Made by a program: the position numbers and the translations under genes
Virus record (IMG/VR): IMGVR_UViG_2529292911_000011
Source: a virus
Lineage: Duplodnaviria > Heunggongvirae > Uroviricota > Caudoviricetes
Length of the DNA stretch: 19,414 bases
Direction: 5' to 3' (one strand)
Notes under the pieces: generated by a model
What the model was told of the DNA's origin: nothing
Databases searched by the model: none
Seen by the model: only the letters and a program-made list of their open reading frames with translations
Shown here: positions 1-18,811 of the stretch, in pieces
Layout: each line of letters starts with the position of its first letter
Position numbering within the stretch: position 1 is the first letter of the stretch

Positions 1-1260
1 ATGCCAAAACTCACAGATATGCAGATCCGCGCATGGATAAAGGCGGGAGACAGATTTGATGGCAAGGCAGACGGCAACGGCCTTTATATTTGCTACCCAA
101 AAAACTACACAGTCCCGTTCTGGCGATTCCGCTATAAGCTCGCAGGAAAGCAGCGGGCTATGGTTATAGGCTCTTACTCCGAACTGTCACTATCAAAAGC
201 CAGAGAAACAGCAAAAGAGCTGTCAGCCAGAGTTGCTCTTGGCTATGACGTAGCAGCAGAGAAACAGGAACGAAAAGCTGAAGCACTGGCAAAAATGGAG
301 GCTGAGAAAAACGCCATGCGCGTTTCAGATCTGGCCGCCGAATACTTCGAGCGCCAGATACTTCCAAGATGGAAACATCCCGATATCCTTCGCCGGAGAA
401 TTGATAAGGATATTAACCCCTGCATTGGGCATATGAAGGTGGAGGACGTTAAGCCACGCCACATTGACGACATGTTGAAAGGTATCGTTGACCGAGGAGC
501 ACCAACGATAGCAACAGATGTATTACGCTGGACACGCCGTATCTTTGACTATGGGATAAAACGCCACGCTCTGGAGATAAACCCTTGTTCAGCGTTTGAA
601 GTATCTGATGCTGGTGGTAAAGAGGTTTCCCGCGACCGTTGGCTAACTCGCGATGAGCTTATCAGGCTATTCGAGGCTATGCGCACCGCAAAAGGATTCA
701 GCCGCCAGAACGAACTGACATTTAAGCTATTGCTGGCACTATGCGTTCGTAAGATGGAGTTATGCGCCGCACGATGGGAAGAGTTTGATTTAGATGGTGC
801 GGTATGGCATTTGCCGGAAGAACGCAGCAAAAACGGAGACCCTATTGATATACCTCTACCTTCCCCAGCCGTTGAATGGTTGAGAGAGCTACACACCTTT
901 TCATGTAATAGCGCATGGGTGCTTCCAGCCAGGAAGATGCAAAACAGAATGATCCCACATATTCAGGAAAGCACTTTGCCCGTAGCACTGGCTAAGGTTC
1001 GCGCCGAAATACCGGATGTGCCTAATTTCACGATTCACGACTTCCGACGCACCGCACGTACTCATTTAGCAGCGTTGGGTGTTGATCCTGTCGTGGCGGA
1101 ACGATGCCTCAATCATCGCATTAAGGGCGTAGAGGGGATTTATAACCGCCATCAGTATTTTGATGAGCGTAAAGCAGCACTGGCACAGTGGGCTGATCTG
1201 CTGGTGGCACTGGAAAGCGGAAAAGACCACAACGTAACGCCTCTCAGAAGGGCGAACTAA
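1..1260 (+). CDS. P4-type tyrosine recombinase (integrase)
   Basis: 419-aa ORF starting at window position 1. N-terminal arm 'LTDMQIRAWIK...GNGLYICYPK...WRFRYK' matches the pattern I recall for P4/CP4-57-family integrases; C-terminal 'HDFRRTARTH' (H-x-x-R) and tyrosine region 'GIYNRHQY'. Minus-strand ORFs at 164-896 are antisense shadows. Confidence 0.9.
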   Translation: MPKLTDMQIRAWIKAGDRFDGKADGNGLYICYPKNYTVPFWRFRYKLAGKQRAMVIGSYSELSLSKARETAKELSARVALGYDVAAEKQERKAEALAKMEAEKNAMRVSDLAAEYFERQILPRWKHPDILRRRIDKDINPCIGHMKVEDVKPRHIDDMLKGIVDRGAPTIATDVLRWTRRIFDYGIKRHALEINPCSAFEVSDAGGKEVSRDRWLTRDELIRLFEAMRTAKGFSRQNELTFKLLLALCVRKMELCAARWEEFDLDGAVWHLPEERSKNGDPIDIPLPSPAVEWLRELHTFSCNSAWVLPARKMQNRMIPHIQESTLPVALAKVRAEIPDVPNFTIHDFRRTARTHLAALGVDPVVAERCLNHRIKGVEGIYNRHQYFDERKAALAQWADLLVALESGKDHNVTPLRRAN

Positions 1261-3216: not shown

Positions 3217-3225
3217 TACCCAGCA
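3217..3225. repeat. 9-bp target site duplication (TACCCAGCA), right copy
   Basis: Exact copy of 1879-1887, immediately after the IS10 outside end. Confidence 0.9.
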
Positions 3226-4286: not shown

Positions 4287-4298
4287 CGGAGACTGAAA

Positions 4299-6329: not shown

Positions 6330-6516
6330 CTCAATTAATCCCCCTCGCCTTACGTCCGCACTTCAATTAATCGAGCAAGCAGCGGCTGTCCTGGTTGCTG
6401 TCAGTCTTTCGGCTGAAGAAATGGACGCTGCTGATGTCGTGGATGCGATTAAAGCGTGCTCATCTTTGGTTAACGATGCCCGTGCCGAGCTGGTAATTCT
6501 TGGGGGTGAAAAATGA
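6322..6516 (+). CDS. Hypothetical small protein (64 aa)
   Basis: ATG 6322 with SD 'GGGGG' (6311-6315); start overlaps the upstream stop (ATGAATAA); stop overlaps the next start. Confidence 0.5.
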   Translation: MNNSINPPRLTSALQLIEQAAAVLVAVSLSAEEMDAADVVDAIKACSSLVNDARAELVILGGEK

Positions 6517-6776
6517 ATATCAACTTAATTTATCGTCATCCGTGTGAGCTGGAAATTGAATCATTGCTGGGGCGCGAAGAGCCATATCCAGACACATTCA
6601 CTCCCGCAGATTGCGCGACTGAACGGCTTACCAGAGCGCGCACAGGTCTGGTTCATGTGATGAATGAGATTGTTCCCTCGGTGGGAGGGGAACAGGCGAC
6701 AGTAATCAATAGCTGGCTACAAAAAGTTACCTCCCTGATAGATATCGGTTTAATCGATGTGGAGAGTGCGAAATGA
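6513..6776 (+). CDS. Hypothetical small protein (87 aa)
   Basis: ATGA start/stop overlap on both sides; part of the coupled operon leading to the primase. Confidence 0.55.
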   Translation: MNINLIYRHPCELEIESLLGREEPYPDTFTPADCATERLTRARTGLVHVMNEIVPSVGGEQATVINSWLQKVTSLIDIGLIDVESAK

Positions 6777-6994
6777 CCAACATCCAGCTCATTGAAGCGC
6801 AATGTCGCATCGAACAGGTTCAGACTGTTTTAGGGTTCTGGCTTGAAGGGGCCAGCCCCAGCAACAGAGACAAGTTAATGATTGGCGCGGTTATGTCACT
6901 GCTCAATGGCGTACCAGAAGCTATTCAGGAAGCGGACGAATTGTTGGGCAAATATGAGTTACAGAATCATTCAGGCGAGGCGAAACATGAATAA
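6773..6994 (+). CDS. Hypothetical small protein (73 aa)
   Basis: ATGA overlap with the upstream stop; its own stop overlaps ATG 6987. Confidence 0.55.
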   Translation: MTNIQLIEAQCRIEQVQTVLGFWLEGASPSNRDKLMIGAVMSLLNGVPEAIQEADELLGKYELQNHSGEAKHE

Positions 6995-7589
6995 TTTCTT
7001 AACTTTCCATGCAGAAGCAACGCCTGACGGCGTAAACATCATGTACCGCAGCAACGATGGCATGACAGAACGCGTTGAGACCGTCTCATATATTGATGCC
7101 GTAAATCGTCTGGATGCCGGGGATTATGACGATAAACCAGATGAAGGCATGTTTATACATCTCGCTATTGCCAGTGGCGGCAACCAGGGATATTTCGATT
7201 ACACATCACAGCATCACGTGATTATGTGGCGCTGGCTGATAGCAACAGCATTCATCAATGAAATGAGAAAGGAAAACGGCACCGTCAGCATTATTGATGA
7301 CAGTGGCAATCATTCCGTGGTTTCTGTTTATTCCAATGGCATCGTCGCCATGCCGCTGTATCCAGTAGCAGAGCGCCTCGCTATGGCAAACAACATTGAG
7401 GGCGCAATGATCGAGAAATATGGTGTTGATGTCGGAACAAAGAATGCCATCATTTTTTACAGCAACATGTTCGATGTCGAACAGGGAACACTCACTTCGT
7501 TTGGGCGAGAAGTGCTTGCCGATCTTCACAACAGCTTTATTGCCGAACTAAACGAAAACGGCATCCCAGAAGCACCAGTGACGCACTAA
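6987..7589 (+). CDS. Hypothetical protein (200 aa) immediately upstream of the primase
   Basis: ATG 6987 with SD 'AGGCGAGG' (6974-6981), overlapping the upstream stop (ATGAATAA). The track ORF from 6882 is probably an N-terminal over-extension. No family recognised. Confidence 0.6.
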   Translation: MNNFLTFHAEATPDGVNIMYRSNDGMTERVETVSYIDAVNRLDAGDYDDKPDEGMFIHLAIASGGNQGYFDYTSQHHVIMWRWLIATAFINEMRKENGTVSIIDDSGNHSVVSVYSNGIVAMPLYPVAERLAMANNIEGAMIEKYGVDVGTKNAIIFYSNMFDVEQGTLTSFGREVLADLHNSFIAELNENGIPEAPVTH

Positions 7590-7601
7590 ACGGGGGCCAG
7601 A

Positions 7602-10358
7602 ATGCGAAACATTGATCTTATCCGTCAGGTTATCAGTGCGTCTGAAAACAACTGGCCTCATGTGCTGGGCTGCCTGAACATAAATGTCCCTGACTCTCCG
7701 CGCCGTCATGCTCCCTGCCCTGCATGTGGGGGCAAAGATCGATTCCGGTTCGATGACAACGGGCGCGGTAGCTTCATCTGTAATCAGTGCGGCGCTGGTG
7801 ATGGGCTGGATTTAATTAAACGCGTAAATAACTGCGACACAACAGAGGCGGCGCTTCTTGCCGCTGATGTTCTGGGTATTGATTACCGGACAACGGAAAC
7901 ACCAGAAGCCACCAGCCAGAAACGGGAACAACTGGAAACCGAGCGCCAGCGACGCGAACAGGAGCGCCTGAAAAGGGCAGAGAAGGACGAACAACAAAGA
8001 CGGGATACGTTTTCCCGTCAGTTTGATGACATGCGCAGAAAGGCTGTAAACGGCAAATCTGATTATCTGGTTGCGAAAGGGGTAGGTGATTTTACATTCC
8101 CCGTGTTGCCCGATGGATCTCTGTTGCTGGCGCTGGTGGATAAATCCGGCGCAGTCACAGCAGCACAGACTATTACCTCACATGGTGAAAAAAGACTCCT
8201 GACAGGTTCAGCAAAGCGAGGGGCATATCACGCCATAAACGCACCAGAAACAACACAGAGCATCTTAATCGCAGAAGGGCTGGCAACGGCATTATCTGCC
8301 CATTTAATTCGTCCAGAGGCGCTGACAGTGGCGGCGATTGATGCCGGGAACCTGTTATATGTCGCCCAGGTACTGCGGGATAAATTTCCTTCAGCACAAA
8401 TCATCATTGCTGCGGATAACGACCACAGCGAAGGAAGACAAAACACGGGGAGAATAGCAGCAGAAAAAGCAGCTTTATCTGTTTCTGGATGGGTGGCATT
8501 ACCCCCGACAGATCACAAAGCAGACTGGAATGATTACCACCAAAAACACGGCATTAAATGCGCCACAGAAGCGTTCAATAAGTCAATGTACCAACCACAG
8601 GGTAATGGCGTGAAACAGGAGCCACAGACCATTGAGGGAAGCGATTTTAAGGTTATGGATACCGACCCACTGAAACCAAGAATAGAAAGCCGCGAGGATG
8701 GTATTTATTGGGTATCTCCGAGAGCTGACAGCCAGAGTGGAGAAATCATCAATAACGAAAGCTGGTTATGTTCTCCGTTAAGCGTTATCGGTACTGGCAG
8801 AGACGATAAAGACCAGTATCTCATTCTTCGCTGGCTGTCGTTTGGTTCTGAAACGCCGACAACCGCTGCCATTCCACTGGCTGATATTGGTGAACGTGAA
8901 GGATGGCGCACACTTAAAGCTGGTGGGGTAAATGTCACGACCAAAAGCAGCCTCAGAGCAATACTGGCAGACTGGCTACAACGCAGTGGCTCTCGTGAAT
9001 TGTGGCGTGTTGCTCATGCCACTGGCTGGCAATGCGGAGCGTACATCATGCCTGATGGGGAAATCATCGGAACACCTGAAAATCCTGTGCTGTTCAGCGG
9101 GAGAAGCTCAGCCGCAGCCGGATATACCGTCTCAGGGAGCGCGAAAAGCTGGCGTGATAACGTGGCGCGTCTGGCCTTTGGTAACTATTCAATGATGACC
9201 GGGATCGGCGCAGCACTGGCAGCGCCATTGATTGGGCTGGTGGGCGCTGACGGGTTCGGCATTCATTTCTATGAGCAGTCGAGCGCGGGTAAGACCACCA
9301 CGGCAAACGTGGCGAGCAGCTTATACGGCAACCCTGATTTACTGCGGCTGACGTGGTACGGAACCGCGCTGGGGCTGGCAAATGAGGCCGCCGCCCACAA
9401 TGACGGATTAATGCCGCTTGATGAAGTTGGTCAGGGCGCTGATCCTGTCAGCGTTTCACAGTCTGCCTATGCGTTATTTAACGGTGTAGGGAAACTGCAA
9501 GGCGCTAAAGATGGTGGAAACCGTGATCTAAAACGCTGGCGTACAGTGGCAATCAGCACCGGAGAAATGGATTTAGAAACATTTATCGCTACTTCTGGGC
9601 GAAAAACCAAAGCCGGGCAACTGGTGCGACTGCTGAATATTCCGTTGAGTAAAGCAGTACGCTTTCACGATTACCAGAACGGAAAACAGCACGCAGACGC
9701 ACTGAAAGACGCTTACCAGCATCACCACGGCGCAGCCGGGCGTGAGTGGATTAAATGGCTGGCAGACCACCAGCAACAGGCTATTAAAACTGTTCGTGAT
9801 TGCGAAAGCAGATGGAGAAGCCTGATCCCATCCGATTATGGTGAGCAGGTTCACCGTGTAGCCGCGCGATTTGCCATTCTGGAGGCAGCATTGCTGTTAG
9901 GCGAAGTTGTAACAGGCTGGGATGCTCAGACATGCCGTGATGCGATACAGCACAGCTATAACGCATGGTTGCGCGAGTTCGGCACAGGTAACAAAGAACA
10001 TCAGCAGATTATTGAACAAACGGAGGCATTTCTTAATGCCTATGGGCTTAGCCGTTTTGCACCATTTCCATACAGCCCGGCAGATTTGCCCATCAAAGAT
10101 TTAGCCGGATACCGTCAGCGTGGAGAACATGACGAAAGCCCAATGATTTTCTACACATTCCCGGCCACATTTGAAAAGGAGATCGCATGTGGTTTCAACG
10201 CAAAACAGTTTGCTGAAGTGTTGAAAAAAGCCGGGATGCTAACCCCACCAAACAGCGGTCGTGGATACCAAAGAAAATCACCACGTATTCAGGGACGACA
10301 AATAAACGTTTATGTACTCAATTACCAGCCAGGAGATTATAACTCATCTGAAGAATGA
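7602..10358 (+). CDS. DNA primase-helicase (N-terminal zinc ribbon + TOPRIM + C-terminal P-loop ATPase), P4 alpha / PICI Pri-Rep type
   Basis: 918 aa. Cys cluster 'CPACGG...CNQCG' near the N-terminus; TOPRIM-like 'LIAEGLATALS' and 'IIAADNDHSEG'; Walker A-like 'YEQSSAGKTT'. Iteron cluster lies immediately downstream. Confidence 0.9.
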   Translation: MRNIDLIRQVISASENNWPHVLGCLNINVPDSPRRHAPCPACGGKDRFRFDDNGRGSFICNQCGAGDGLDLIKRVNNCDTTEAALLAADVLGIDYRTTETPEATSQKREQLETERQRREQERLKRAEKDEQQRRDTFSRQFDDMRRKAVNGKSDYLVAKGVGDFTFPVLPDGSLLLALVDKSGAVTAAQTITSHGEKRLLTGSAKRGAYHAINAPETTQSILIAEGLATALSAHLIRPEALTVAAIDAGNLLYVAQVLRDKFPSAQIIIAADNDHSEGRQNTGRIAAEKAALSVSGWVALPPTDHKADWNDYHQKHGIKCATEAFNKSMYQPQGNGVKQEPQTIEGSDFKVMDTDPLKPRIESREDGIYWVSPRADSQSGEIINNESWLCSPLSVIGTGRDDKDQYLILRWLSFGSETPTTAAIPLADIGEREGWRTLKAGGVNVTTKSSLRAILADWLQRSGSRELWRVAHATGWQCGAYIMPDGEIIGTPENPVLFSGRSSAAAGYTVSGSAKSWRDNVARLAFGNYSMMTGIGAALAAPLIGLVGADGFGIHFYEQSSAGKTTTANVASSLYGNPDLLRLTWYGTALGLANEAAAHNDGLMPLDEVGQGADPVSVSQSAYALFNGVGKLQGAKDGGNRDLKRWRTVAISTGEMDLETFIATSGRKTKAGQLVRLLNIPLSKAVRFHDYQNGKQHADALKDAYQHHHGAAGREWIKWLADHQQQAIKTVRDCESRWRSLIPSDYGEQVHRVAARFAILEAALLLGEVVTGWDAQTCRDAIQHSYNAWLREFGTGNKEHQQIIEQTEAFLNAYGLSRFAPFPYSPADLPIKDLAGYRQRGEHDESPMIFYTFPATFEKEIACGFNAKQFAEVLKKAGMLTPPNSGRGYQRKSPRIQGRQINVYVLNYQPGDYNSSEE

Positions 10359-10370
10359 GCTTCTTCATGT

Positions 10371-10484
10371 GCGTAGAAAAGGTGTTGGTTCAGTTGGTTC
10401 AGTTGGTTCAATTTGCAAAGAGTATTGTTTTGTAAGGATTTTATTCTTTTTATTGAACCAACACTGAACCAACAACACGGTATT
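10371..10484 (+). repeat. Iteron cluster A (putative origin of replication)
   Basis: Three tandem 9-bp 'GTTGGTTCA' repeats (10374-10400), a ~40-bp AT-rich spacer, then three inverted 'TGAACCAAC' copies (10444-10452, 10455-10463, 10476-10484). Sits directly 3' of the primase-helicase. Confidence 0.8.
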
Positions 10485-10813
10485 TTGAACCAACACAATG
10501 TGACTGAATTGATGCGCTCAACACCTGGCTGGCATCAGAGAGTGTTTTACGAGACTTTCGTAAAATCCTGTGTACAAGGGCGTGACGTTTTTGAAAGTGA
10601 GCACTACGAAATTTTCGTAGTTCAGAAAACAGCCCCTGAGAAGTTGTTATGCCTGTTCAGCAAACCATCCGCATAGCTGATCGCGAATCAAATTACCAAT
10701 GGAGCCAGAAGCAAGGGCAGAACTGAAAAGCGCCTGCCGTGAAGAGTAATGCGACACCATAAATATAGTTTTTAGAGTCCATAAAAAACCTGTCAAAACC
10801 TGACACACAGAAC

Positions 10814-10848
10814 GATGCCACCAGCTACTGAGCGGTGGCATTTTTTTG
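10814..10848 (+). terminator. Rho-independent terminator
   Basis: Stem 'TGCCACC' (10816-10822) / 'GGTGGCA' (10834-10840) with an 11-nt loop, followed by TTTTTTT (10841-10847). Confidence 0.7.
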
Positions 10849-10909
10849 TGCTGTTTGTTTCATATTTTGCAATTACGATGATGAATATTGCGATTTGTGA
10901 AACTATAAT

Positions 10910-10929
10910 AACTGTTGTTTTATACAGTT
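10910..10929 (+). promoter_or_regulatory. LexA-box-like site (putative SOS operator) in the cargo operon promoter region
   Basis: 'AACTGTTGTTTTATACAGTT' = CTGT-N8-ACAG with AT-rich centre; 15/20 identical to the box at 18749-18768, including both flanks. Lies between a 'TATAAT' hexamer (10904-10909) and the SD 'AAGGGGG' of the ORF at 10943. Confidence 0.45.
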
Positions 10930-10942
10930 CTAAGGGGGCGTT

Positions 10943-11116
10943 ATGGCTATTTCAGTAAAGCCGGTATTGATAAGTGAGAAGCAAATGGAAGCGATAAAGA
11001 AAATTCAGGAGGAGCAGCGTAAAAAATCAGAGGTAGGAGTTGCGCCAACGATCCACGAAATTGCTCGGGGATTAATGGATAAGGCGCTGGCTTACACTTT
11101 AACTGGACGTGGGTAA
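10943..11116 (+). CDS. Small protein (57 aa), possible ribbon-helix-helix DNA-binding protein
   Basis: Not in the ORF track (under 60 aa). ATG 10943 with SD 'AAGGGGG' (10932-10938). 'KPVLISEKQMEAIKKIQEE...GVAPTIHEIARGLMDKAL' has a strand-helix-loop-helix layout compatible with an Arc/CopG-like fold. Ends 4 nt before the next ATG. Confidence 0.45.
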   Translation: MAISVKPVLISEKQMEAIKKIQEEQRKKSEVGVAPTIHEIARGLMDKALAYTLTGRG

Positions 11117-11120
11117 ATCA

Positions 11121-12587
11121 ATGGCTACGTGGCAACAGGGTATTAATTCTGGTGGTTTTCTGGCTGGCATCGGTACGCAAAATGAGAATGCGCCAAAGGC
11201 AAGCGACATTAACGCAACGCTTGGTCTGATTCGCGAAAACAATGAACTGGCTCGATCAGGTGCAAATAACGTTGCTCTGACAGGTCTTCGTGGTCTGGCT
11301 GGAGTTGCTGATATTTATAAGCAGCAGCAACAGCAGGAGCGTAAAGCGGCATTCCAGAAAGGTTATGCAGATGCTTATGCGTCCGGTGACAGGGAGCAGA
11401 TGCGTAATCTTATTACAGCATTCCCAGAAGAGTTTGAGGAAGTCCGTAAAGGGATGAGTTATGTCGATGATGCTCAAAGGGATGATTATGGCAATCTGGC
11501 GCTCAAAGCACAGGTAGCCTCATCGCTTGGTCCGGGCGCATTTGGCAGGTTCATGATGGATAATGAGCAGGAGATGCGTCGTTTAGGTATCCCTCCAGAA
11601 ACTATTGCTGAAATGCAGGTTAATGACCCGCAGGGCTTCCAGCATTTCGCAGGTAATCTGGCGCTGTTTTCTCTCGGTCATGAGAAGTATTTCGATATCA
11701 AAGATCAAATGGAAAGTCGGGATATTGAGCGTGGCAAGTTGGCAGAGACAATCCGCAGCAATCAGGCTGGTGAAGCACTTCAGGCGAGAGGGCAGGATAT
11801 TAGCCGAGCAAATGCGTTAACGTCAGCATATGCACCAACAGCAGCAATGCAGAATTACAATCAGTACGCGCAAATGTTAAAGGCTGATCCAGAGGGGGCG
11901 GCGGCATTTGCGGCAGCGGCTGGAATTAATACAAACACCAAAAAATTAATGAGTGTTAGAGAAAACGATGATGGCACTGTCACAAAATACTACACAGACG
12001 GAAGTGAAGAGCAGGGAAAACTAAACCAGCCAATATCTGGAGATGGGTTTCGTCCAATAGCTTTGCCAACAGCCCAAAAGATCATGGAAAAGTCGCCAGA
12101 AGGGGCTAAAAAAGCTGCTGGATTTGCATACAGGGTTAGGGATGCTCTTGATTCAATAGATACACTGAAAGACCAGCTTAGCCCACAGCGAGTGGCGATC
12201 ATTAATAATGCTTTGGGTAATGGGACGCTGGCTAACTTAACGCTCAGCCCAGCAGAGCAGCAATACGTTGTTAATGCTAATGACGCAATAATGGCAATAC
12301 TCCGTCAGGAAACAGGGGCAGCTATCGCACCTGCTGAAATGTCAAAATATTATCAAATGTATTTCCCTCAGCCTGGCGACTCCACAAAAACCATTGATAC
12401 CAAGCGCCGGAAGATGGAAAACCAGTTCAATTCGCTGAAAGCTGCTTCTGGTCGAACTTATGATGCTTTGCGGGTTATTTCAGCAGTTGACAGAGGAACT
12501 GCTTCTTCGTCGCAGACATTGCCGCAATCTGAGCAGGTATCACAGCCAGCAGCCAGCAGTAACTTTTCTTCACTATGGGGTGATTAA
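11121..12587 (+). CDS. Hypothetical protein (488 aa), Gln/Ala-rich, function unknown
   Basis: ATG 11121 (the track's GTG at 11109 is an alternative start). Poly-Q stretch 'KQQQQQERK', Ala-rich tracts; no catalytic motif recognised. Stop overlaps the start of the next gene (TAATG). Confidence 0.8.
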   Translation: MATWQQGINSGGFLAGIGTQNENAPKASDINATLGLIRENNELARSGANNVALTGLRGLAGVADIYKQQQQQERKAAFQKGYADAYASGDREQMRNLITAFPEEFEEVRKGMSYVDDAQRDDYGNLALKAQVASSLGPGAFGRFMMDNEQEMRRLGIPPETIAEMQVNDPQGFQHFAGNLALFSLGHEKYFDIKDQMESRDIERGKLAETIRSNQAGEALQARGQDISRANALTSAYAPTAAMQNYNQYAQMLKADPEGAAAFAAAAGINTNTKKLMSVRENDDGTVTKYYTDGSEEQGKLNQPISGDGFRPIALPTAQKIMEKSPEGAKKAAGFAYRVRDALDSIDTLKDQLSPQRVAIINNALGNGTLANLTLSPAEQQYVVNANDAIMAILRQETGAAIAPAEMSKYYQMYFPQPGDSTKTIDTKRRKMENQFNSLKAASGRTYDALRVISAVDRGTASSSQTLPQSEQVSQPAASSNFSSLWGD

Positions 12588-14692
12588 TGGCTAAAGCATG
12601 GAAAGATGTTATCGCCTCTCCACAGTATCAGGCGTTAGCACCAGAACAAAAAGCGCAGGCTCAGGAGCAATACTTCAATGAAGTCGTTGCCCCGCAAGCC
12701 GGAGAAAGTGTAGAGCAGGCTAAGCAGGCTTTTTATGCTGCCTATCCACTACCATCAACGAATGAAATAGACCGATCCCAATCAGCAACTCAAAATATTC
12801 AACATACATCATCTGATAATTCTATTGCGTCAGGGTATGCAAAGTTAGCTACTCAGCAAAGAGAGGGGCTTGAGCGTTCAGCAGAACAGGGAGCCAGTCT
12901 TGGGGCTGCGATGCGCGATGCTATAACAGGCGAAAGCCGAATGACTCCAGAGATGGAGAGACTGCAAAATGTCGACCTTGCCCCAGAGTTAACCTCACTC
13001 AGCATGGATGCTCTAAAAGCTCGATGGTCTCAACTTTTCGGCTCTGACGCATCTCAGGAAAAGATTCTTCAGAGCATGGGAGCGAAATTAAGGCAGGATG
13101 AGAAGGGTAACACTATCGTTTCCCTGCCATCCGGTGATTATGCTCTGAACAAGCCGGGTTTATCGCCGCAAGACGTGGCATCGTTTCTGGCTAATGCGCT
13201 GGCGTTTACACCAGCGGGCAGGGCCGGAACGGTGCTGGGGGCCATAGGGAAATCAGCAGCTACAGATTTAGCACTACAGGGAGCCACCAGCCTCGCTGGT
13301 GGAGAAGATATTGATCCGTTACAAACGGTAATTTCTGCTGGCATTGGTGGTATTGGTAAGGGGCTGGAAAATACAGCGAGTGCGGTTTCGAGGGCTGTTC
13401 GTGGTGATATGTCGCCTGAAGCAAAGGCTGCTGTCGACTTTGCATCGGAAAGAAATCTGCCGTTAATGACCAGTGACATGCTGAAAGATAAAACCTTTAT
13501 GCAGAGTCAGGCTCAGACATTAGGCGAAAGAGTTCCTTTTTTTGGAACCGGTAAGAATCGGCTGAATCAACAACAAGCACGAGAAAATTTAGTCAGAACA
13601 TTTAGCGATGGTCTGGGTGGCATTTCTGATAAACAGCTTTATGAATCTGCGACTAAAGGGCAACAAAAATTCATTGAGGCAGCAGGAAAGCGATATAACC
13701 GCATAATTGACGCTATGGGGGATACCCCTGTCGATCTCTCAAACACGGTAAAAGCTATCGACAATCAGATTGCCGTGTTAAGCCGCCCGGGCAAATCTCA
13801 GGATAGAGCCGCGGTAAAAGTCTTGCAGCAATTTAAAGACGATATCACCAGCGGACCAAATGACCTGCGTCTGGCGAGGGAAAACAGAACCGATCTTCGA
13901 AAGCGATTTATGGCGTCATCTGACACTGTTGATAAAGATACGCTCCAGAAAGCCAGCGATATTATCTACAAGGCATATACGGCGGATATGAAAAAAGCCG
14001 TAGCCAAAAATCTTGGAGCAGACGAAGCTATTAATATGGCAAGGGTTGATCGCTCATGGTCTAAATTCAATGACATGATGGGAAGAACGCGCGTTCAAAA
14101 GGCAATAGCCAGCGGCAAGGCCACGCCTGAGGATGTAACAAAACTTGTTTTTAGCCAAAGCCCATCAGAACGTTCTCAGCTTTACAGGCTTCTGGATGAC
14201 AATGGTAGGCAAAACGCACGAGCAGCCATAGTTCAGAATGCTGTAGATAAGGCGACTGATCCGTCTGGAAATATCAGTGTTGAGAAGTTTATTAATGCGT
14301 TACACCGGAACAGGAAGCAATCAGCAACTTTCTTTAAAGGCATACATGGAAAGGAACTGGACGGCGTTATTAAATACCTCAACGATACAAGACACGCGGC
14401 AAAAGCGAACGTTCAAAACTTAAATGGTCAGCAGCTTTATGGATTGTTAGTTGGTGGTGGCATCATAAACGCAGCAGTATTAGCGGGGATGCTAAAAACG
14501 GCTGCGTTTGTTGTTCCTGCTGCTGGTGCCGTAGGCGGAGCAGCGAAGGCATACGAAAGCCCTGTTATACGAAATGCCTTGTTACGTCTGGCAAATACGC
14601 CAAAAGGTAGCACAGCATATGACAGAGCGATCAGTACGGTCACACAATCACTGACCACAGCAGCACAAGCATCGCAAAAGGAAGCTCAATAA
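12587..14692 (+). CDS. Hypothetical protein (701 aa), helical low-complexity with a C-terminal Gly/Ala-rich hydrophobic segment, function unknown
   Basis: Translationally coupled to the upstream gene. Residues ~617-656 'LYGLLVGGGIINAAVLAGMLKTAAFVVPAAGAVGGAAKAY' (nt ~14435-14554) look like a glycine-zipper/transmembrane segment. No nucleotide-binding or nuclease motif recognised. Confidence 0.85.
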   Translation: MAKAWKDVIASPQYQALAPEQKAQAQEQYFNEVVAPQAGESVEQAKQAFYAAYPLPSTNEIDRSQSATQNIQHTSSDNSIASGYAKLATQQREGLERSAEQGASLGAAMRDAITGESRMTPEMERLQNVDLAPELTSLSMDALKARWSQLFGSDASQEKILQSMGAKLRQDEKGNTIVSLPSGDYALNKPGLSPQDVASFLANALAFTPAGRAGTVLGAIGKSAATDLALQGATSLAGGEDIDPLQTVISAGIGGIGKGLENTASAVSRAVRGDMSPEAKAAVDFASERNLPLMTSDMLKDKTFMQSQAQTLGERVPFFGTGKNRLNQQQARENLVRTFSDGLGGISDKQLYESATKGQQKFIEAAGKRYNRIIDAMGDTPVDLSNTVKAIDNQIAVLSRPGKSQDRAAVKVLQQFKDDITSGPNDLRLARENRTDLRKRFMASSDTVDKDTLQKASDIIYKAYTADMKKAVAKNLGADEAINMARVDRSWSKFNDMMGRTRVQKAIASGKATPEDVTKLVFSQSPSERSQLYRLLDDNGRQNARAAIVQNAVDKATDPSGNISVEKFINALHRNRKQSATFFKGIHGKELDGVIKYLNDTRHAAKANVQNLNGQQLYGLLVGGGIINAAVLAGMLKTAAFVVPAAGAVGGAAKAYESPVIRNALLRLANTPKGSTAYDRAISTVTQSLTTAAQASQKEAQ

Positions 14693-14753
14693 CAGATGGC
14701 CATGGATGGTTGGTTATAATAGTAATTAGTATTTTTTCAAATAGTTATGAACA

Positions 14754-15152
14754 TTAACACTTGCCTTTAACATTGCCGACAAATGAGCCTGTAAATGAGC
14801 CTATATCAGATCGACTAATTGTTCGTGTATGGATCACTTTTCCGTCATTTGAGATTGCCCATGTGACAAGCGTCAGTTGACCATCTCGATAGCTTCTTCC
14901 CATCATGGCATTCGGAGATAGCGGGTAATAATCAATACCTCCACCTATACCATCTTTTGCCAAGATAAGATCCGCCTTCTCTTTACTTATTACCAAATGA
15001 AAGGTATCTGGTATAGATGATAACTTATAGTTATACCCATCTGAACTTGAGGCTTCTTGTCCTTTCAGATCACCAATAATCCAGCATTCAGCGTTCGCTC
15101 CAAAAGAAGCAAATAATAAACCGGAGACAACCAATCGCTTCAATTGATTCAC
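14754..15152 (-). CDS. Small secreted protein with Sec signal peptide (133-aa precursor)
   Basis: GTG start at 15152 with strong SD 'AAGGGAGGG' 5 nt upstream on the minus strand; N-terminus 'MNQLKRLVVSGLLFASFGANA|ECW' is a classic signal peptide with an AxA site. The track's upstream extension to 15278 would bury the signal peptide and is rejected. AT-rich. Mature protein has Cys near both ends. Confidence 0.65.
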   Translation of the reverse strand: MNQLKRLVVSGLLFASFGANAECWIIGDLKGQEASSSDGYNYKLSSIPDTFHLVISKEKADLILAKDGIGGGIDYYPLSPNAMMGRSYRDGQLTLVTWAISNDGKVIHTRTISRSDIGSFTGSFVGNVKGKC

Positions 15153-15291
15153 ACCAACCCTCCCTTTAGCGTTGTTTAGAATGGCAATCATCATATATCC
15201 AAGACATGGCATTTGGTACATAGCTTGGGTCGGGATTTCAAATCCGATCCCCGTTGATGGGGCCGTTACAGTGCGCACATATCCGCTTTAT

Positions 15292-15552
15292 GTGAAACAG
15301 GAAGATTTTTCTGATATCACTGCCACAGCAAAACACCAATTTCGAGACAAGTACGCGTGCGAGGGGTATCAGTTGCAAAAAATTTTGCAACTACGTCCGA
15401 CCAGTATGCACACGATGGCGGGGGGATACCATAAAACTGTTCTCTACATGAGACAGAGTGGTGGTGATGTGTTGATTATCGGCGTATATGCGCACAGGAC
15501 GCGCTATGACGATGTTTTATGCGGGTACACCAATCACATGTATCTGGTGTGA
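15292..15552 (+). CDS. Hypothetical small protein (~86 aa), possibly RelE/ParE-like fold
   Basis: C-terminal 'GGYHKTVLYMRQSGGDVLIIGVYAHRTRYDDV' loosely fits the RelE/ParE core pattern. Start is uncertain (GTG 15292 or 15271; no clear SD). No antitoxin partner seen. Confidence 0.3.
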   Translation: MKQEDFSDITATAKHQFRDKYACEGYQLQKILQLRPTSMHTMAGGYHKTVLYMRQSGGDVLIIGVYAHRTRYDDVLCGYTNHMYLV

Positions 15553-16185
15553 TAAATCGCGTTACATGACCTCTCATGTTGTGCTGGTGGTTATCACGAC
15601 GTTCTGAATCTGGCCTTTGCCTGGTATTTTGCGACAAGTACGCGCGCGTAGCATCGAAATAATCGGATGGCGTATGCTGCTGGTAATATGAAGACCGATA
15701 GCATTAACCGAAAGGAGAAAGACTTCTCGATAACGGCAAGGGGGCTGAATTGCGAGGCGAGATTAAGCAACTGTCTTGAACGTAAAAATCATGGAGCAAC
15801 ATGATGGTACGATTCATTCCATTCTTCGTTCTTTCTGAGCATTGCGTTCAGGCTTAGTCAAAATTAGTGTTGCGAGCGGACCTATTAGTAATTGTTGGTG
15901 CGATGCGCCTGTTATGGATTGTTATGGTTGTGGCAGGCCTGATTAATATCCAGTATGACCACCAGCTATGAGAGGCCACCTCAGTGGTTCGCAGTTGCAG
16001 GTTTGCACTCAGGTTCGCAGGGTTTTGGCTACTTTCACGTGCGAACCTGCAGAATTGCAAAGGACAACTAAGTCCTCTGGCCAACTCCCGGTTTATGAGC
16101 GACACAGTCCGCCTGGCGCATCGTTTTCGTCGAGTGCGCCCATCAGCTTGTCCATGGACTATCCACCACTCGATATTAAAGCTAA

Positions 16186-16371
16186 TCATTGGTTGCCAGC
16201 CCGCGAATCAAGTTTGTTCTGGATCCAAGCTTCAACCTCCTCAAGCGACCATCTAGCTGATCTACCAATTTTAACTGGCTGTGGAAACGTGCCCGTCTTA
16301 ACCCATGAGTAGATTGCCGTTTTCTTGAAGCCCGTTCTGAGCATGACTTCGCTTAATTTGATAAGGCGCAT
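16186..16371 (-). CDS. alpA: AlpA-family transcriptional regulator, second copy in inverted orientation
   Basis: 61 aa 'MRLIKLSEVMLRTGFKKTAIYSWVKTGTFPQPVKIGRSARWSLEEVEAWIQ' is a textbook AlpA HTH pattern. Divergent in sequence from the copy at 3652. Confidence 0.8.
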   Translation of the reverse strand: MRLIKLSEVMLRTGFKKTAIYSWVKTGTFPQPVKIGRSARWSLEEVEAWIQNKLDSRAGNQ

Positions 16372-16623
16372 AGAGGCTCCTCTGCTTTAGATTAAGCATA
16401 GTGACAATCTGGCTTTGGGCGGTATCCAAAAGCGAGGTATCCATGTTGGTATCCACCAAAACGCTGTTTACCAAAAAAGTTACCACCGGAACAGGACATT
16501 TTGAGCTGTAACTTAACACATAGCATATGGAGTTCACGCATAGACTTCACGCACAACGGCTCCGGCCAGTGAAGAATCACCCTGGCTGGCAATATAATGC
16601 CGATCACCATCAGAGGGGAATCC

Positions 16624-16815
16624 ATGACACCACGAGAAATCGAGCTGCTGACCATTGCCAAGCTGGAGCATGACGGCCACCAGCTCAGCCCGGCAGAACT
16701 GCGGGAATTAAGGCGCCAGCTGGCAGAGGGCCCTGTAATAGCCAGGCGGTACCGCGAAATGATGACCAGCCACGCATATCGCTGGAGCAAACCAGCGCCG
16801 CTCCGTGCGCGGTGA
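16624..16815 (+). CDS. Hypothetical small protein (63 aa)
   Basis: ATG 16624 preceded by SD 'GAGGGG'; 'MTPREIELLTIAKLEHDGHQLSPAELRELRRQLAEG...'. Two direct 'TTCACGCA' repeats (16533-16540, 16546-16553) lie upstream. The overlapping minus-strand ORF 16392-16790 is W/R/C-rich and looks spurious. Confidence 0.35.
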   Translation: MTPREIELLTIAKLEHDGHQLSPAELRELRRQLAEGPVIARRYREMMTSHAYRWSKPAPLRAR

Positions 16816-16890
16816 GCAGCACCTAACCAGCACTAGACAAGCCCTGTGCTGGTGGATGTCCCTCATAATTAGCGGTTTTTAAACGGCGTG

Positions 16891-17013
16891 TTGGTTCACG
16901 GCCTCTTTTTGTTGGTTCAAAAATGGGGTGTGTTGGTTCACATTTTGCGAATAATCCTTTTAAAAACAATACTCTTTGCAAATTGAACCAACTGAACCAA
17001 CTGAACCAACACC
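16891..17013 (-). repeat. Iteron cluster B (second ori-like / cis replication region), inverted relative to cluster A
   Basis: On the minus strand: three tandem 'GTTGGTTCA' (plus-strand 'TGAACCAAC' at 16984-17010), an AT-rich spacer, then three dispersed copies (16891-16898, 16912-16919, 16933-16940). Positions 16963-17013 are the exact reverse complement of 10371-10421 (51 bp). Confidence 0.8.
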
Positions 17014-17046
17014 TTTTTGCTTATCTATATAGTCTGAGAGGCAGAA

Positions 17047-17334
17047 ATGATAAGGGACAGGAAAGCTGAAGAGCTGGAGTTAAAAGGGCTATGCCGGAGA
17101 GCTGCCACACGATGGGCAGAAGTCATGACGCTGGCAGATGGCGATAAAGAACGTGAACATGCAGCAAACAGACGCTCTGAATGTATCCGTAGGGCGGCAC
17201 GCCCACCAGCAACTACAGACAGATTCGGAGACTTAAGACAGGCAGTTAAGCGAACGCATTCAGCTCTTGGTATGGATGAGGAAGCGAGAGGGTACTTCAG
17301 GCGTTATCGCGATAAAGATTGCCAGCTACGATAA
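17047..17334 (+). CDS. Hypothetical basic protein (95 aa)
   Basis: ATG 17047 with SD 'GAGAGG'; Arg-rich; immediately downstream of iteron cluster B. No family recognised. Confidence 0.55.
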   Translation: MIRDRKAEELELKGLCRRAATRWAEVMTLADGDKEREHAANRRSECIRRAARPPATTDRFGDLRQAVKRTHSALGMDEEARGYFRRYRDKDCQLR

Positions 17335-17503
17335 AGCAAAGGAGGTGTCTTACTACAATGACCAAGCAAAACTGTCGTTGCTTTCGCATAGCATCAGCTA
17401 AAAGATCAAGACACCCAACATCGCATTAATAAGTATAATCAATTTGCTTCTTTCAACATTTGCTATAGAGTTTTTGAACCTTAATGGTTTATGAGCATCT
17501 ATA

Positions 17504-18268
17504 ATGACTACAACGGTATATGATCGTGTTAACGCCTTAGTAGCGACCGACTCTAGGTGGTCTGTTGATCTTAGCCCACATGGCTACGATGGTCATATCC
17601 TGTATATTGACGATACCGGCTTCGGTAAGCTAGCTCCACGAAATGATTTTGTTATGCTTTTAGCCGGTGATGGTCTTTTGATTCAGTTATGGAAGCATTG
17701 GTGGCGAGGAGACCTATCTCAACAAGAACCACCAGTTGTTTTACCTACTGGTCAATCGGTAAATTTACATATTGTGAAAAAATCAACTAATGAAGTGATT
17801 TTTGATAAAGGTCAAAAATTAGTTGTAAAAAATAACGAAACGGAAGAACTGTTCGCTGTCTTTACAGGCTCAGGATGCGGTGCTGCTGCGCAAAACTGGA
17901 TGTATAGCCATTGCGCAAGATCAGCAATTGAAGAATCTAAAAAGCTTGACCCATACACTGGCGGCACTGTACGTTTTTTAGACTTCAGGACTAACGCATC
18001 ATTAGTAGAAGACTCTGTTTCAACCATTAGCGAAGTAAACGAAGCTCTATTGCAGAGGGGGCTGATTATGGATACCAAAAACCCACATTCACCACACGTT
18101 TCTATCAGTGCACAAGAAGTTGCTGAAGTTCGTCAAATGCTGGTTAGTGGTTCAATTACCCCATGTGCACCAGTAGGCCAAAGAACCCAAGATTGGGATG
18201 ACAACTCCAAATTGCGTTTAGCAAATGCTATTCAGCGTATTCGTGAAGAAGAAGCACAAATGCGATAA
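17504..18268 (+). CDS. Hypothetical protein (254 aa), AT-rich, function unknown
   Basis: Long ORF in a relatively AT-rich segment, followed by a strong hairpin terminator. No motif recognised. Confidence 0.75.
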   Translation: MTTTVYDRVNALVATDSRWSVDLSPHGYDGHILYIDDTGFGKLAPRNDFVMLLAGDGLLIQLWKHWWRGDLSQQEPPVVLPTGQSVNLHIVKKSTNEVIFDKGQKLVVKNNETEELFAVFTGSGCGAAAQNWMYSHCARSAIEESKKLDPYTGGTVRFLDFRTNASLVEDSVSTISEVNEALLQRGLIMDTKNPHSPHVSISAQEVAEVRQMLVSGSITPCAPVGQRTQDWDDNSKLRLANAIQRIREEEAQMR

Positions 18269-18286
18269 ATGGAATAAGTAAGCCTA

Positions 18287-18316
18287 AAAAGCTGCCTATC
18301 ATACAGGCAGCTTTTT
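18287..18316. terminator. Rho-independent terminator, potentially bidirectional
   Basis: 'AAAAGCTGCCT-ATCATAC-AGGCAGCTTTTT': 7-bp GC-rich stem flanked by an A-run on the 5' side and a T-run on the 3' side; 19 nt after the stop of the 254-aa ORF. Confidence 0.75.
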
Positions 18317-18627
18317 AGTCCGTTTCCCCATTCTATGTAAATACACTTCCTAAAAATAGCGATTAACTTACCTCTCACAATCAATTTCACGAGCAATACG
18401 CGTGCGCAGTACAACAAGCCTGAACAGGGTTACACACCTCGATCGTGAGCGATGTAGACAATGGCTTTTGACCAAAGCACCAGAAAAAACCGTGTACATA
18501 AGGGTGTACATAATCAAAAAAATCATTAGAAAGAAATCAGCCACAATGCGGCATTGAAGCCAATACTCTACAAACAGATTCAATTGAGTAACTCGTAACA
18601 CTAATTCTTACTTTTCAGCCTTCACAA

Positions 18628-18658
18628 ATGCCGCCCACTCAAACAGAGCGGCATTTTT
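18628..18658 (+). terminator. Orphan rho-independent terminator-like hairpin
   Basis: Stem 'ATGCCGC' (18628-18634) / 'GCGGCAT' (18648-18654), 13-nt loop, T-run 18654-18658. No plus-strand ORF within about 300 bp upstream. Confidence 0.5.
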
Positions 18659-18748
18659 CTTCCCCGCAACTTCAATTCTGTTTTGCGTGCCTGCTCCAGA
18701 TTTTGCGATGTTTTTTTGCCCAGCACACTGAGAACGTGAGATACTCAC

Positions 18749-18768
18749 AACTGTATATAAATACAGTT
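18749..18768 (+). promoter_or_regulatory. LexA box (SOS operator)
   Basis: 'AACTGTATATAAATACAGTT' is a perfect CTGT-N8-ACAG palindrome with AT-rich centre, about 45 bp upstream of the start of the downstream ORF. It matches the dinD SOS box as I remember it. Confidence 0.8.
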
Positions 18769-18811
18769 ACAGATTTACTTTCTTTGCAATCGATATCACA
18801 TGGAGTGGGCA

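What the first reader, a model, noticed from the sequence alone, without database searches (positions are those of the whole stretch)
14435..14554. Glycine-zipper-like hydrophobic segment near the C-terminus of the 701-aa protein
The stretch LYGLLVGGGIINAAVLAGMLKTAAFVVPAAGAVGGAAKAY is the only strongly hydrophobic region in an otherwise polar helical protein. Small-residue repeats of this kind are typical of membrane-inserting or pore-forming helices (phage pilot/ejection proteins, channel-forming toxins), hinting at membrane-active effector or ejection-related function.
Basis: inference. Interest (0 to 1): 0.5.

Follow-up and report, generated by a model that had tools for sequence, protein, structure and literature searches.

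The report
Hydrophobic hairpin in a gp16-type ejection protein
The flagged stretch is real and lies in a phage P22 gp16-type DNA-ejection protein, the part of the injection tube that crosses the bacterial inner membrane; here the gene sits on a phage-parasitic island, and the protein family and island family are both already described.

Summary
Window 14435-14554 encodes LYGLL...AKAY (aa 617-656 of the 701-aa ORF 12587-14692), which is by far the most hydrophobic part of a mostly helical, polar protein.

The protein belongs to the P22 gp16 ejection-protein family (PF26808, PHROG 770). Its gene follows a gp20-type gene (PF16928). In P22, gp16 forms the part of the DNA channel that crosses the cytoplasmic membrane.

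The segment is a family-wide feature, not a quirk of this copy. It is about 40 residues, almost free of charge and about half Gly/Ala. An almost invariant Gly (G614) precedes it and a Y-E-S motif follows it. The two P22 gp16 mutations that escape the inner-membrane exclusion protein SieA map onto it.

Its composition matches the C-terminal V-shaped hairpin of P22 gp7, which cryo-EM shows embedded in the outer membrane. Hydropathy alone is marginal, however. In P22 the C-terminal 134 residues are reported dispensable for membrane binding in vitro. Membrane insertion by this segment is therefore plausible but unproven.

The gene lies on an EcCIMP1-like phage-inducible chromosomal island (primase 99.7% identical), a published satellite of a P22-like phage. 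Verdict: a new member of a known kind, of modest interest.

The parts
12587..14692 (+). 701-aa P22 gp16-family DNA-ejection (E) protein
   Evidence: PHROG 770 E 4.5e-161. BLASTP to P22 gp16 E 4e-53. The PF26808 tag is on near-identical cluster representatives. dN/dS among island copies is 0.13-0.17.
14435..14554 (+). The flagged Gly/Ala-rich hydrophobic segment (aa 617-656). Two arms, 617-634 and 639-653, flank a K637-T638 turn.
   Evidence: AF2 predicts helices 614-623 and 630-656 at low confidence.
14405..14545 (+). Full low-charge stretch, aa 607-653, with K637 as its only charged residue. Its hydrophobic core (aa 617-653) is bounded by the nearly invariant G614 (P22 G532) and followed by K654 and the conserved Y656-E657-S658...R662 motif.
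13193..13396 (+). It is a candidate second membrane- or partner-interacting region.
   Evidence: pLDDT below 50 across 203-270. Across the family it has 54% small and 14% charged residues. In 46 of 151 homologues the most hydrophobic window falls in this part of the protein.
11121..12587 (+). 488-aa gp20-type ejection protein (periplasmic tube); its stop overlaps the gp16 start.
   Evidence: PF16928 Inj_translocase E 6.6e-84. PHROG 917 E 2.8e-143.
10943..11116 (+). 57-aa ORF heading the ejection-protein operon. It was found only in island copies.
   Evidence: tblastn finds it in 18 island-type loci and in none of about 70 phage-type loci. It is 77-80% identical in islands whose primase is 75% identical.
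14754..15278 (-). ORF converging on the gp16 gene, with a signal-peptide-like N-terminus, in the position that sieA occupies in P22.
   Evidence: PHROG 2651 E 2.9e-22. Translation. In phage SE10 the superinfection exclusion gene sits in this position.
7602..10358 (+). Island primase-helicase (Zn ribbon, TOPRIM, DUF927), 99.7% identical to that of PICI EcCIMP1.
1..1260 (+). Island tyrosine integrase. The island is inserted between yicC and dinD.

Best explanation
The 701-aa ORF encodes a gp16-type ejection protein of P22-like podophages.

Such proteins are packed inside the capsid and expelled through the tail before the DNA. On the distal end of the gp20 periplasmic tube they assemble the part of the DNA conduit that crosses the cytoplasmic membrane; AlphaFold3 modelling with six gp16 copies best fitted the in situ density.

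The flagged segment is the family's conserved C-terminal, nearly charge-free, Gly/Ala-rich element of about 40 residues. I propose that it folds as a two-armed V-shaped helical hairpin, with arms 617-634 and 639-653 and a turn at K637-T638. In this model it stays masked while the protein is soluble in the virion. After ejection it packs helix-to-helix through its small residues in the oligomer and sits in or on the inner membrane.

Shown: family membership, conservation of the element, and the mapping of the SieA-escape sites onto it. Inferred: the hairpin fold, lipid embedding and oligomer packing.

This copy is carried by an EcCIMP1-like phage-inducible chromosomal island, which keeps an exchangeable cassette of these genes.
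For: Family membership:
- PHROG 770, P22 gp16 BLASTP E 4e-53, the PF26808 tag, and BFVD fold matches to 'injection protein' models at E 4e-19.
- Relatives at 70-93% identity sit in complete P22-like prophages after gp7 and gp20.
- A 98% identical 701-aa copy with the identical segment is in a phage contig that has portal, hub, gp14 and gp7 genes.

The segment:
- In 104 of 151 diverse homologues the most hydrophobic 19-residue window lies in the last fifth of the protein.
- The region carries 5% charged residues against 22-28% in most of the rest of the protein, and is bounded by G614, Y656, E657 and S658, each at least 90% conserved.
- The P22 SieA-escape changes G532W and P546S (PMC10883804) align to G614 and to the K637 turn. 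[quoted passage not shown]
- P22 gp7 residues 184-229 form a V-shaped two-helix hairpin embedded in the outer membrane. That stretch has nearly the same composition: 48% against 47% Gly/Ala, mean KD 0.87 against 1.09, and one charged residue against two (in gp7 a single central Lys).
- AF2 models the core at pLDDT above 90 but 626-639 below 50, so this is not a confident buried core helix.
- The unrelated 906-aa protein in the same slot of EcCIMP1 also has a Gly-rich hydrophobic stretch about 90-108 residues from its C-terminus.
Against: - Hydropathy is marginal. The additive Hessa score is +2.6 kcal/mol for the best 19-mer, and a soluble primase in the window scores the same (KD 1.76, Hessa +2.9). 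A real SieA transmembrane helix scores KD 2.60 and Hessa -1.3.
- In most family members each arm has only about 11-15 residues, and an Asp/Asn often sits in the middle. That is too short for a classical transmembrane hairpin.
- The P22 stretch contains R540, K550 and E555. [quoted passage not shown]
- P22 gp16 residues 476-609 are reported dispensable for membrane association in vitro (second-hand).
- No solved structure exists to check against.
- I could not model an oligomer.
Confidence: 0.55

Rival explanations
1. The segment is a protein-protein packing element, not a lipid-embedded one. Small-residue (GxxxG-type) faces would let helices pack tightly within the gp16 oligomer, against the gp20 C-terminal 'plinth', or against a host or exclusion protein such as YajC or SieA.
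For: - GxxxG-type spacing is a general helix-packing motif; here it occurs at 619-623 and 647-651.
- SieA-escape mutations map to the segment, and they need companion changes in gp20.
- The C-terminal 134 residues of P22 gp16 are reported dispensable for membrane binding.
- A soluble primase has an equally hydrophobic stretch.
- The arms are short in most homologues.
Against: - Near-absence of charge over about 40 residues across a very diverse family is unusual for a soluble interface.
- The composition matches the gp7 hairpin seen embedded in a membrane.
- AF2 does not dock the segment confidently onto the monomer core.
Confidence: 0.25
2. The segment is a flexible Gly/Ala-rich linker or hinge. 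Its job would be to let the protein unfold, thread through the portal and tail channel, and refold. It would have no specific membrane or partner contact.
For: - pLDDT is low at both Gly/Ala-rich regions, 203-270 and 626-639.
- Length varies, with insertions and deletions inside the segment across the family.
- Ejection proteins are known to refold (PMC8954989).
Against: - Linkers are normally polar or charged. This one excludes charge and keeps hydrophobic positions: L, I or V dominate columns 617, 618, 626 and 649.
- The boundary residues are nearly invariant.
- Point mutations here change the SieA phenotype.
Confidence: 0.12
3. The segment is a compositional accident of an Ala-rich protein and has no function.
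For: 12% of shuffles of this protein reach the same hydropathy.
Against: - The feature recurs at the same aligned position in most of 131-151 homologues that share only 25-40% identity.
- It is identical or nearly identical among island copies that differ at synonymous sites, with dS up to 0.27.
Confidence: 0.03

Closest known systems
Phage P22 gp16 (E protein; Pfam PF26808 Phage_P22_gp16; PHROG 770)
   Same: - Homologous over aa 210-683: 30% identity, E 4e-53.
- Same gene order, directly after the gp20 gene.
- Same conserved boundary motifs (TGQ ... YES-x-x-RN-x-LLRLANT).
- The same low-complexity element sits between those motifs.
   Different: - 701 aa rather than 609 aa.
- A different, HK620-type N-terminal 55 residues.
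- The hydrophobic element is 9 residues longer in pairwise alignment with P22. It includes a six-residue insertion (627-632) present in only 4-9% of the family.
- It has no internal charge except K637, so it is much more hydrophobic than in P22 (KD19 1.79; P22's highest window anywhere is 1.18, outside the homologous stretch).
C-terminal V-shaped membrane hairpin of P22 gp7 (residues ~184-229)
   Same: - About 45 residues, about 48% Gly/Ala, one central Lys, a low hydrophobic moment, and a position at the C-terminus of an ejected protein.
- Cryo-EM shows it as two helices per subunit embedded in a membrane within a 12-mer.
   Different: - No sequence homology.
- gp7 inserts into the outer membrane, while gp16 acts at the inner membrane.
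- The gp16 segment is followed by another 45 conserved polar residues.
- The fold of the gp16 segment has not been observed.
T7 gp16 internal core protein
   Same: - Same functional slot: the last and largest ejected protein, which forms the inner-membrane part of the ejectosome.
- It is soluble yet inserts into liposomes, and it is proposed to have two membrane regions, one of them C-terminal.
- BFVD fold matches include relatives with LT_GEWL or SLT lytic-transglycosylase domains.
   Different: - No detectable sequence similarity.
- No lytic-transglycosylase domain here (no SLT hit in Pfam).
- About half the size.
EcCIMP1, a phage-inducible chromosomal island of E. coli MP1 (Pick, Stadel & Raivio, ISME J 2025, PMC11773190)
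   Same: - Same island backbone: primase 99.7% and AntA 97% identical, with 93-98.6% DNA identity over most of the backbone.
- Same small ORF followed by an ejection-protein cassette downstream of the primase.
- A PerC-family gene, and no capsid, terminase or lysis genes.
   Different: - A different integrase and integration site (yicC/dinD rather than thrW).
- The gp14 and gp7 genes are missing.
- gp20 is only 26% identical.
- The gp16 slot holds an unrelated 906-aa transglycosylase-type protein in EcCIMP1.
Hydrophobic helical hairpins of soluble-to-membrane proteins (colicin pore domains, diphtheria toxin TH8-TH9)
   Same: A charge-free, Ala/Gly-rich stretch of about 40 residues within an otherwise soluble helical protein that must later enter a membrane. 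This comparison rests on my own knowledge.
   Different: - No homology.
- PDB fold search gave nothing significant; alpha-pore-forming toxins appear only at E about 1.

Membership tests
Phage_P22_gp16 (PF26808) / PHROG 770 ejection protein | Full-length sequence similarity to the family | tested here: met
   PHROG 770 E 4.5e-161, covering aa 19-700 against profile positions 3-667 of 668. P22 gp16 BLASTP E 4e-53. The PF26808 tag is on 96-99% identical cluster representatives. The local Pfam copy lacks this model, so there was no direct Pfam hit.
Phage_P22_gp16 (PF26808) / PHROG 770 ejection protein | Gene lies immediately downstream of a gp20-type (PF16928) gene | tested here: met
   The gp20-type ORF at 11121-12587 overlaps the gp16 start at 12587. 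Phages show the same order.
Phage_P22_gp16 (PF26808) / PHROG 770 ejection protein | Conserved family residues are present | tested here: met
   G540 is invariant. T295, D297, E314, P317, G320, T321, R325, G614, Y656, E657, S658 and R662 are at least 90% conserved, and all are present.
Phage_P22_gp16 (PF26808) / PHROG 770 ejection protein | Packaged in virions, ejected before the DNA, and required for DNA entry | not testable with these tools
   Supported only indirectly. A 98% identical copy is encoded by a complete P22-like phage contig.
Canonical transmembrane helix | At least 19 residues with KD of 1.6 or more and a favourable insertion free energy | tested here: inconclusive
   KD19 is 1.79, but the additive Hessa score is +2.6 kcal/mol. 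The SieA control scores 2.60 and -1.3; the soluble primase control scores 1.76 and +2.9. No dedicated predictor (TMHMM or DeepTMHMM) was available.
Glycine zipper (GxxxGxxxG or (G/A/S)xxxGxxxG) | Three small residues at i, i+4 and i+8 with Gly at the last two positions | tested here: not met
   Only single GxxxG pairs (G619-G623, G647-G651) and looser patterns (A630-G634-T638, G647-G651-A655) are present. 'Glycine-zipper-like' is fair; a strict zipper is absent.
EcCIMP1-like PICI (phage satellite) | Integrase, AlpA-type regulator, antirepressor, Ash, primase and PerC present, with no capsid, terminase or lysis genes | tested here: met
   Pfam and PHROG annotation of the window's main ORFs. tblastn finds no portal, coat or hub genes. 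The primase is 99.7% identical to EcCIMP1's.
EcCIMP1-like PICI (phage satellite) | Excision and transfer only when a helper phage is induced | not testable with these tools
   Shown experimentally for EcCIMP1 with the helper phage Kapi1 (PMC11773190), not for this island.
T7 gp16-type internal core protein | N-terminal lytic transglycosylase domain | tested here: not met
   No SLT or LT domain in Pfam. The PHROG 29864 label 'transglycosylase' covers aa 65-411 of the gp16 body, with no SLT/LT catalytic domain detected there. LT-fused relatives do exist.

The most novel reading that the evidence does not exclude
The island's ejection-protein cassette may be an active satellite weapon rather than passive cargo. 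I see two versions.

(a) The satellite's own matched gp20/gp16 pair is built into helper capsids. Particles carrying the island could then deliver DNA into cells that exclude the helper's own gp16/gp20, for example through SieA-type exclusion.

(b) gp16 made from the resident island reaches the inner membrane through this hydrophobic hairpin and poisons the channel of an incoming P22-like phage. That would explain the superinfection immunity of EcCIMP1, whose mechanism is still unknown.

Either way, the backbone stays 93-99% identical while the gene 20/16 alleles are swapped wholesale. This is what an arms race over DNA entry would produce.
Probability: 0.15. Interest if true: 0.7.

Novelty: new member of a known kind. 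Interest (0 to 1): 0.3.

Why it matters
Which part of gp16 crosses the inner membrane is still open. The only structural data are a ~10 Å in situ density, and the P22 authors note that gp16 has no strongly predicted transmembrane helix.

This allele offers a cleaner handle than P22's own gp16. Its version of the conserved C-terminal element is longer, and K637 is the only charge between its bounding motifs. The known SieA-escape positions fall on that element.

That gives a concrete, testable candidate for the membrane-embedded or SieA-contacting part of the channel. It also shows that a published satellite family, the EcCIMP1-like PICIs, carries the set of internal/ejection-protein genes gp14, gp7, gp20 and gp16 as an exchangeable cassette. 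The original paper read these genes as possible packaging genes.

Tried and rejected
- PDB by sequence and by fold: nothing significant, so no solved gp16 structure is available to place the segment.
- NCBIfam and PADLOC scans of gp16, gp20 and neighbouring ORFs: no hits, apart from a sub-threshold excisionase-domain hit on the 67-aa HTH ORF.
- The local Pfam copy has no gp16 model.
- A search for the P22 pac site, with the sequence recalled from memory and up to 3 mismatches: none in the window.
- Promoter and terminator scan around the operon: no more sites than in shuffles. The only persuasive site is a terminator at about 10824-10848, upstream of the operon.
- The search for related loci with the family alignment failed because no block was conserved enough. 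The single-protein scan of species-representative genomes found the island type only in Escherichia.
- Perez et al. 2009 (PMC2612440) is not held, so its truncation result is cited second-hand from PMC10883804.
- 'Channel-forming toxin/effector' was considered and rejected. Alpha-pore-forming toxins appear only at E about 1 in the PDB fold search, and homology assigns the protein to virion ejection proteins.
- I first thought a satellite carrying ejection proteins was unreported. One search then found EcCIMP1, which removed that claim of novelty.
- dN/dS between the window and the L009 copy was uninformative, with only 2 differences. More distant island copies were used instead.
Full report
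**1. The observation**

They are aa 617-656 of the 701-aa ORF at 12587-14692.

A 19-residue Kyte-Doolittle scan puts the protein's maximum, 1.79, at aa 625-643. The runner-up anywhere in the protein is 0.95. AlphaFold2 predicts an almost all-helical protein. So the description, the only strongly hydrophobic stretch in a polar helical protein, holds.

Within this one sequence the statistics are modest:
- 12% of shuffles reach the same hydropathy, because the protein is 14% Ala.
- About 4-5% of shuffles give an equally charge-poor 40-residue window or an equally long charge-free run.

A strict GxxxGxxxG zipper is absent. Only GxxxG pairs and looser small-xxx-G-xxx-small patterns occur.

**2. What the protein is**

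The ORF is a member of the phage P22 gp16 ejection-protein family.
- It matches PHROG 770 'DNA transfer protein' end to end, E 4.5e-161.
- It aligns with P22 gp16 at 30% identity over 482 columns, E 4e-53.
- Proteins 96-99% identical to it carry the precomputed Pfam tag PF26808, which names Phage_P22_gp16.
- RefSeq annotators call the gene 'injection protein' or 'P22-gp16 family phage DNA ejection protein'.
- Relatives at 70-93% identity sit in complete P22-like prophages, in the order portal, coat, gp4, gp10, gp14, gp7, gp20, gp16.
- One metagenomic phage contig (L035) encodes a 701-aa copy that is 98% identical and has an identical segment, next to portal, hub, gp14 and gp7 genes.

No solved structure matches by sequence or by fold. 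Predicted viral structures labelled 'injection protein', and transglycosylase-fused relatives, match at E down to 2e-19.

**3. What gp16 does**

A 2026 preprint used in situ cryo-EM of P22-infected minicells. It shows that gp7, gp20 and gp16 build a ~50 nm channel. The stump of density that crosses the cytoplasmic membrane is missing when gp16 is deleted. That density is resolved only to about 10 Å, so which residues cross the bilayer is not assigned. [quoted passage not shown] A 2022 review states that C-terminal putative transmembrane helices were identified in all the gp16-like homologues it tabulated (PMC8954989).

**4. The segment is a family feature**

I aligned 151 diverse homologues, most of them 25-45% identical to the query.
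- In 104 of them the most hydrophobic 19-residue window lies in the last fifth of the protein.
- The median KD19 of the homologous region is 1.34, and 24 members reach 1.6 or more.

In a 131-sequence alignment, the columns for aa 611-656 carry 5% charged residues, against 22-28% in most of the rest of the protein (14% in the aa 203-270 Gly/Ala-rich region), and 53% small residues. The region is bounded by G614, Y656, E657, S658 and R662, each at least 90% conserved.

Most members have a polar, helix-breaking centre, commonly D/N then P, any residue, then T. This splits the region into two arms of about 11-15 residues. The query has a six-residue insertion (627-632) that only 4-9% of the family share, and K-T at the turn. 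That gives arms of 18 and 15 residues. The longer variant is not specific to the island; a Yersinia P22-like prophage has it too.

**5. Links to membrane biology**

(a) SieA escape. P22 mutants that escape the inner-membrane exclusion protein SieA carry gp16 G532W and P546S, together with gp20 changes (PMC10883804). In my alignments G532 corresponds to the nearly invariant G614 at the N-terminal edge of the segment. P546 falls at the K637/T638 turn.

(b) A precedent in the same machine. The C-terminus of P22 gp7 forms a V-shaped pair of helices embedded in the outer membrane, 24 helices from 12 subunits. That stretch (aa 184-229) and the gp16 segment (aa 614-656) have nearly the same composition:

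| Property | gp7 184-229 | gp16 614-656 |
|---|---|---|
| Gly/Ala | 48% | 47% |
| Mean KD | 0.87 | 1.09 |
| Charged residues | 1 (central Lys) | 2 |
| Hydrophobic moment | low | low |

So weakly hydrophobic Gly/Ala hairpins do serve as membrane elements in this machine.

(c) Structure prediction. AlphaFold2 models the central core (aa 270-610) at pLDDT mostly above 90. It leaves 63-78, 203-270 and 626-639 below 50. I could not inspect coordinates or model an oligomer.

**6. Evidence against**

Controls show that hydropathy alone proves little:

| Segment | KD19 | Additive Hessa score (kcal/mol) |
|---|---|---|
| P22 SieA transmembrane helix | 2.60 | -1.3 |
| This segment | 1.79 | +2.6 |
| Window's cytosolic primase | 1.76 | +2.9 |

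The homologous P22 stretch contains three charged residues. P22 gp16 lacking residues 476-609 is reported still to bind membranes in vitro (Perez et al. 2009, as cited in PMC10883804). I could not read the original paper.

That result may reflect a second Gly/Ala-rich, low-confidence region, aa 203-270 here and about 127-190 in P22. In 46 of 151 homologues it holds the hydrophobicity maximum.

I therefore commit to a membrane-proximal V-hairpin of the inner-membrane channel at 0.55. Of the rivals, a protein-protein packing interface is rated 0.25, a refolding hinge 0.12 and chance 0.03.

**7. Genomic context**

The window is an E. coli chromosomal island between yicC and dinD. It encodes an integrase, an AlpA-type HTH protein, AntA, DUF4222, Ash, a TOPRIM-DUF927 primase and PerC. 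It has no portal, coat, terminase or tail genes.

It belongs to the family of EcCIMP1, a phage-inducible chromosomal island shown experimentally to be induced and transduced by the P22-like phage Kapi1. EcCIMP1 also adds to superinfection immunity by an unknown mechanism (PMC11773190). The similarity is close: the primase is 99.7% and AntA 97% identical, and most of the backbone DNA is 93-98.6% identical.

Sister islands, and EcCIMP1 itself, carry a small ORF followed by gp14 (DUF2824), gp7, gp20 and gp16. The window and some others lack gp14 and gp7.

Further observations on the cassette:
- The small ORF was found only in island copies: 18 island loci, and none of about 70 phage loci.
- The cassette alleles are swapped while the backbone is conserved. 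EcCIMP1's gp20 is 26% identical, and its gp16 slot holds an unrelated 906-aa transglycosylase-type protein. That protein nevertheless also has a Gly-rich hydrophobic stretch about 90-108 residues from its C-terminus.
- More distant islands (primase 75% identical) keep the same cassette order.
- 302 of 5426 complete E. coli genomes hold at least 80% of this operon.
- Island copies differ mainly at synonymous sites. dN/dS is 0.13-0.17 for gp16 and 0.15-0.35 for gp20. Exchange with phages could contribute to that signal.
- Some copies are broken: by IS1203 in ETEC1731 and by truncation in strain E66.

**8. Novelty and verdict**

The protein family, its role at the inner membrane and the island family are all published. 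The new points are incremental:
- The segment is defined as a conserved family element.
- The SieA-escape sites map onto it.
- Its composition matches the gp7 membrane hairpin.
- The 'DNA transfer' genes of EcCIMP1-like PICIs are recognised as a swappable cassette of the internal/ejection-protein genes gp14, gp7, gp20 and gp16.

I rate it a new member of a known kind, with interest 0.3. The most novel reading left open is that the satellite uses the cassette to bypass or to impose exclusion at the DNA-entry step.

Noticed in passing
window 1-18800 (whole island); L110 = E. coli MP1 NZ_CP139039 3557883-3585854: The window is an EcCIMP1-like phage-inducible chromosomal island. Its primase is 99.7% and AntA 97% identical to those of the published PICI EcCIMP1. 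It has a different integrase (29% identical) and a different insertion site (yicC/dinD rather than thrW).
   Followed up: yes
window 10943-14692; L009 12044-16880; L012, L015, L016, L017, L049: Sister islands carry a small ORF followed by gp14 (DUF2824), gp7 (PF25688), gp20 and gp16. The window (and L010, L011) goes straight from the small ORF to gp20, so gp14 and gp7 are missing. Island gp7 is only 61% identical to the reference phage gp7 (Salmonella prophage L005), whereas most P22-like E. coli and Salmonella phage loci are 77-99% identical to it.
   Followed up: partly
window 10943-11116 (+): A 57-aa ORF (MAISVKPVLISEKQMEAIKKIQEEQRKK...) heads the ejection-protein operon. It occurs only in island-type loci, never in phage loci. 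Its sequence pattern suggests a ribbon-helix-helix regulator; this is my reading and was not tested.
   Followed up: partly
window 10383-10500 and 10815-10848: Just downstream of the primase gene there are iteron-like repeats: TTGGTTCAG three times, then inverted TTGAACCAAC-type copies. This may be the island's replication origin. A strong hairpin-plus-T-run terminator follows, before the ejection-protein operon.
   Followed up: no
window 1901-3109 (-); L001 20267-21480: An IS (DDE_Tnp_1 transposase) interrupts the ORF that starts at 1356 in this window. The otherwise identical island of strain ETEC1731 lacks that IS but has IS1203 inserted inside the gp16 gene. In strain E66 the gp16 gene is truncated, so the cassette is not always kept intact.
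   Followed up: partly
window 14754-15278 (-): An ORF converges on the gp16 gene in the position where P22 carries sieA. It has a signal-peptide-like N-terminus (LKRLVVSGLLFASFGANAEC) and matches PHROG 2651 (unknown function). It is a candidate periplasmic exclusion or moron protein.
   Followed up: partly
L110 12598-15318 (-), EcCIMP1: In EcCIMP1 the gp16 slot holds an unrelated 906-aa 'lytic transglycosylase domain' protein. It also has a Gly-rich hydrophobic stretch (SGAIAGGFGGGVIGSISGLVAGGAL, KD19 1.55) about 90-108 residues from its C-terminus, so the feature recurs in a non-homologous occupant of the same slot.
   Followed up: partly
L035 8646-12106 compared with window 11121-14692: A complete P22-like phage contig has a gp16 that is 98% identical to the window's. 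Its gp20 matches only in the N-terminal 228 residues (51%) and the last 20 residues (90%). The recombination breakpoints therefore lie inside gene 20, even though gp16 and gp20 are reported to need matching partners.
   Followed up: partly
window 12587-12750 (aa 1-55 of the 701-aa protein): The N-terminal ~55 residues are HK620-type (74% identical to HK620 gp16). The rest of the protein is of a different type, 93% identical to the gp16 of a Sf6-coat-type phage whose N-terminus starts MKVTANGK. The ejection protein is thus a mosaic.
   Followed up: partly
window 9192-9248 (primase aa 531-549): The cytosolic primase-helicase contains MMTGIGAALAAPLIGLVGA, which is as hydrophobic as the flagged gp16 segment (KD19 1.76). 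It served as a negative control for hydropathy-based membrane calls.
   Followed up: yes
L001 4142-5101 (outside the window, between slmA and pyrE of strain ETEC1731): A 'reverse transcriptase family protein' gene lies about 3 kb from the island's left end. It may be a retron-type defence gene.
   Followed up: no
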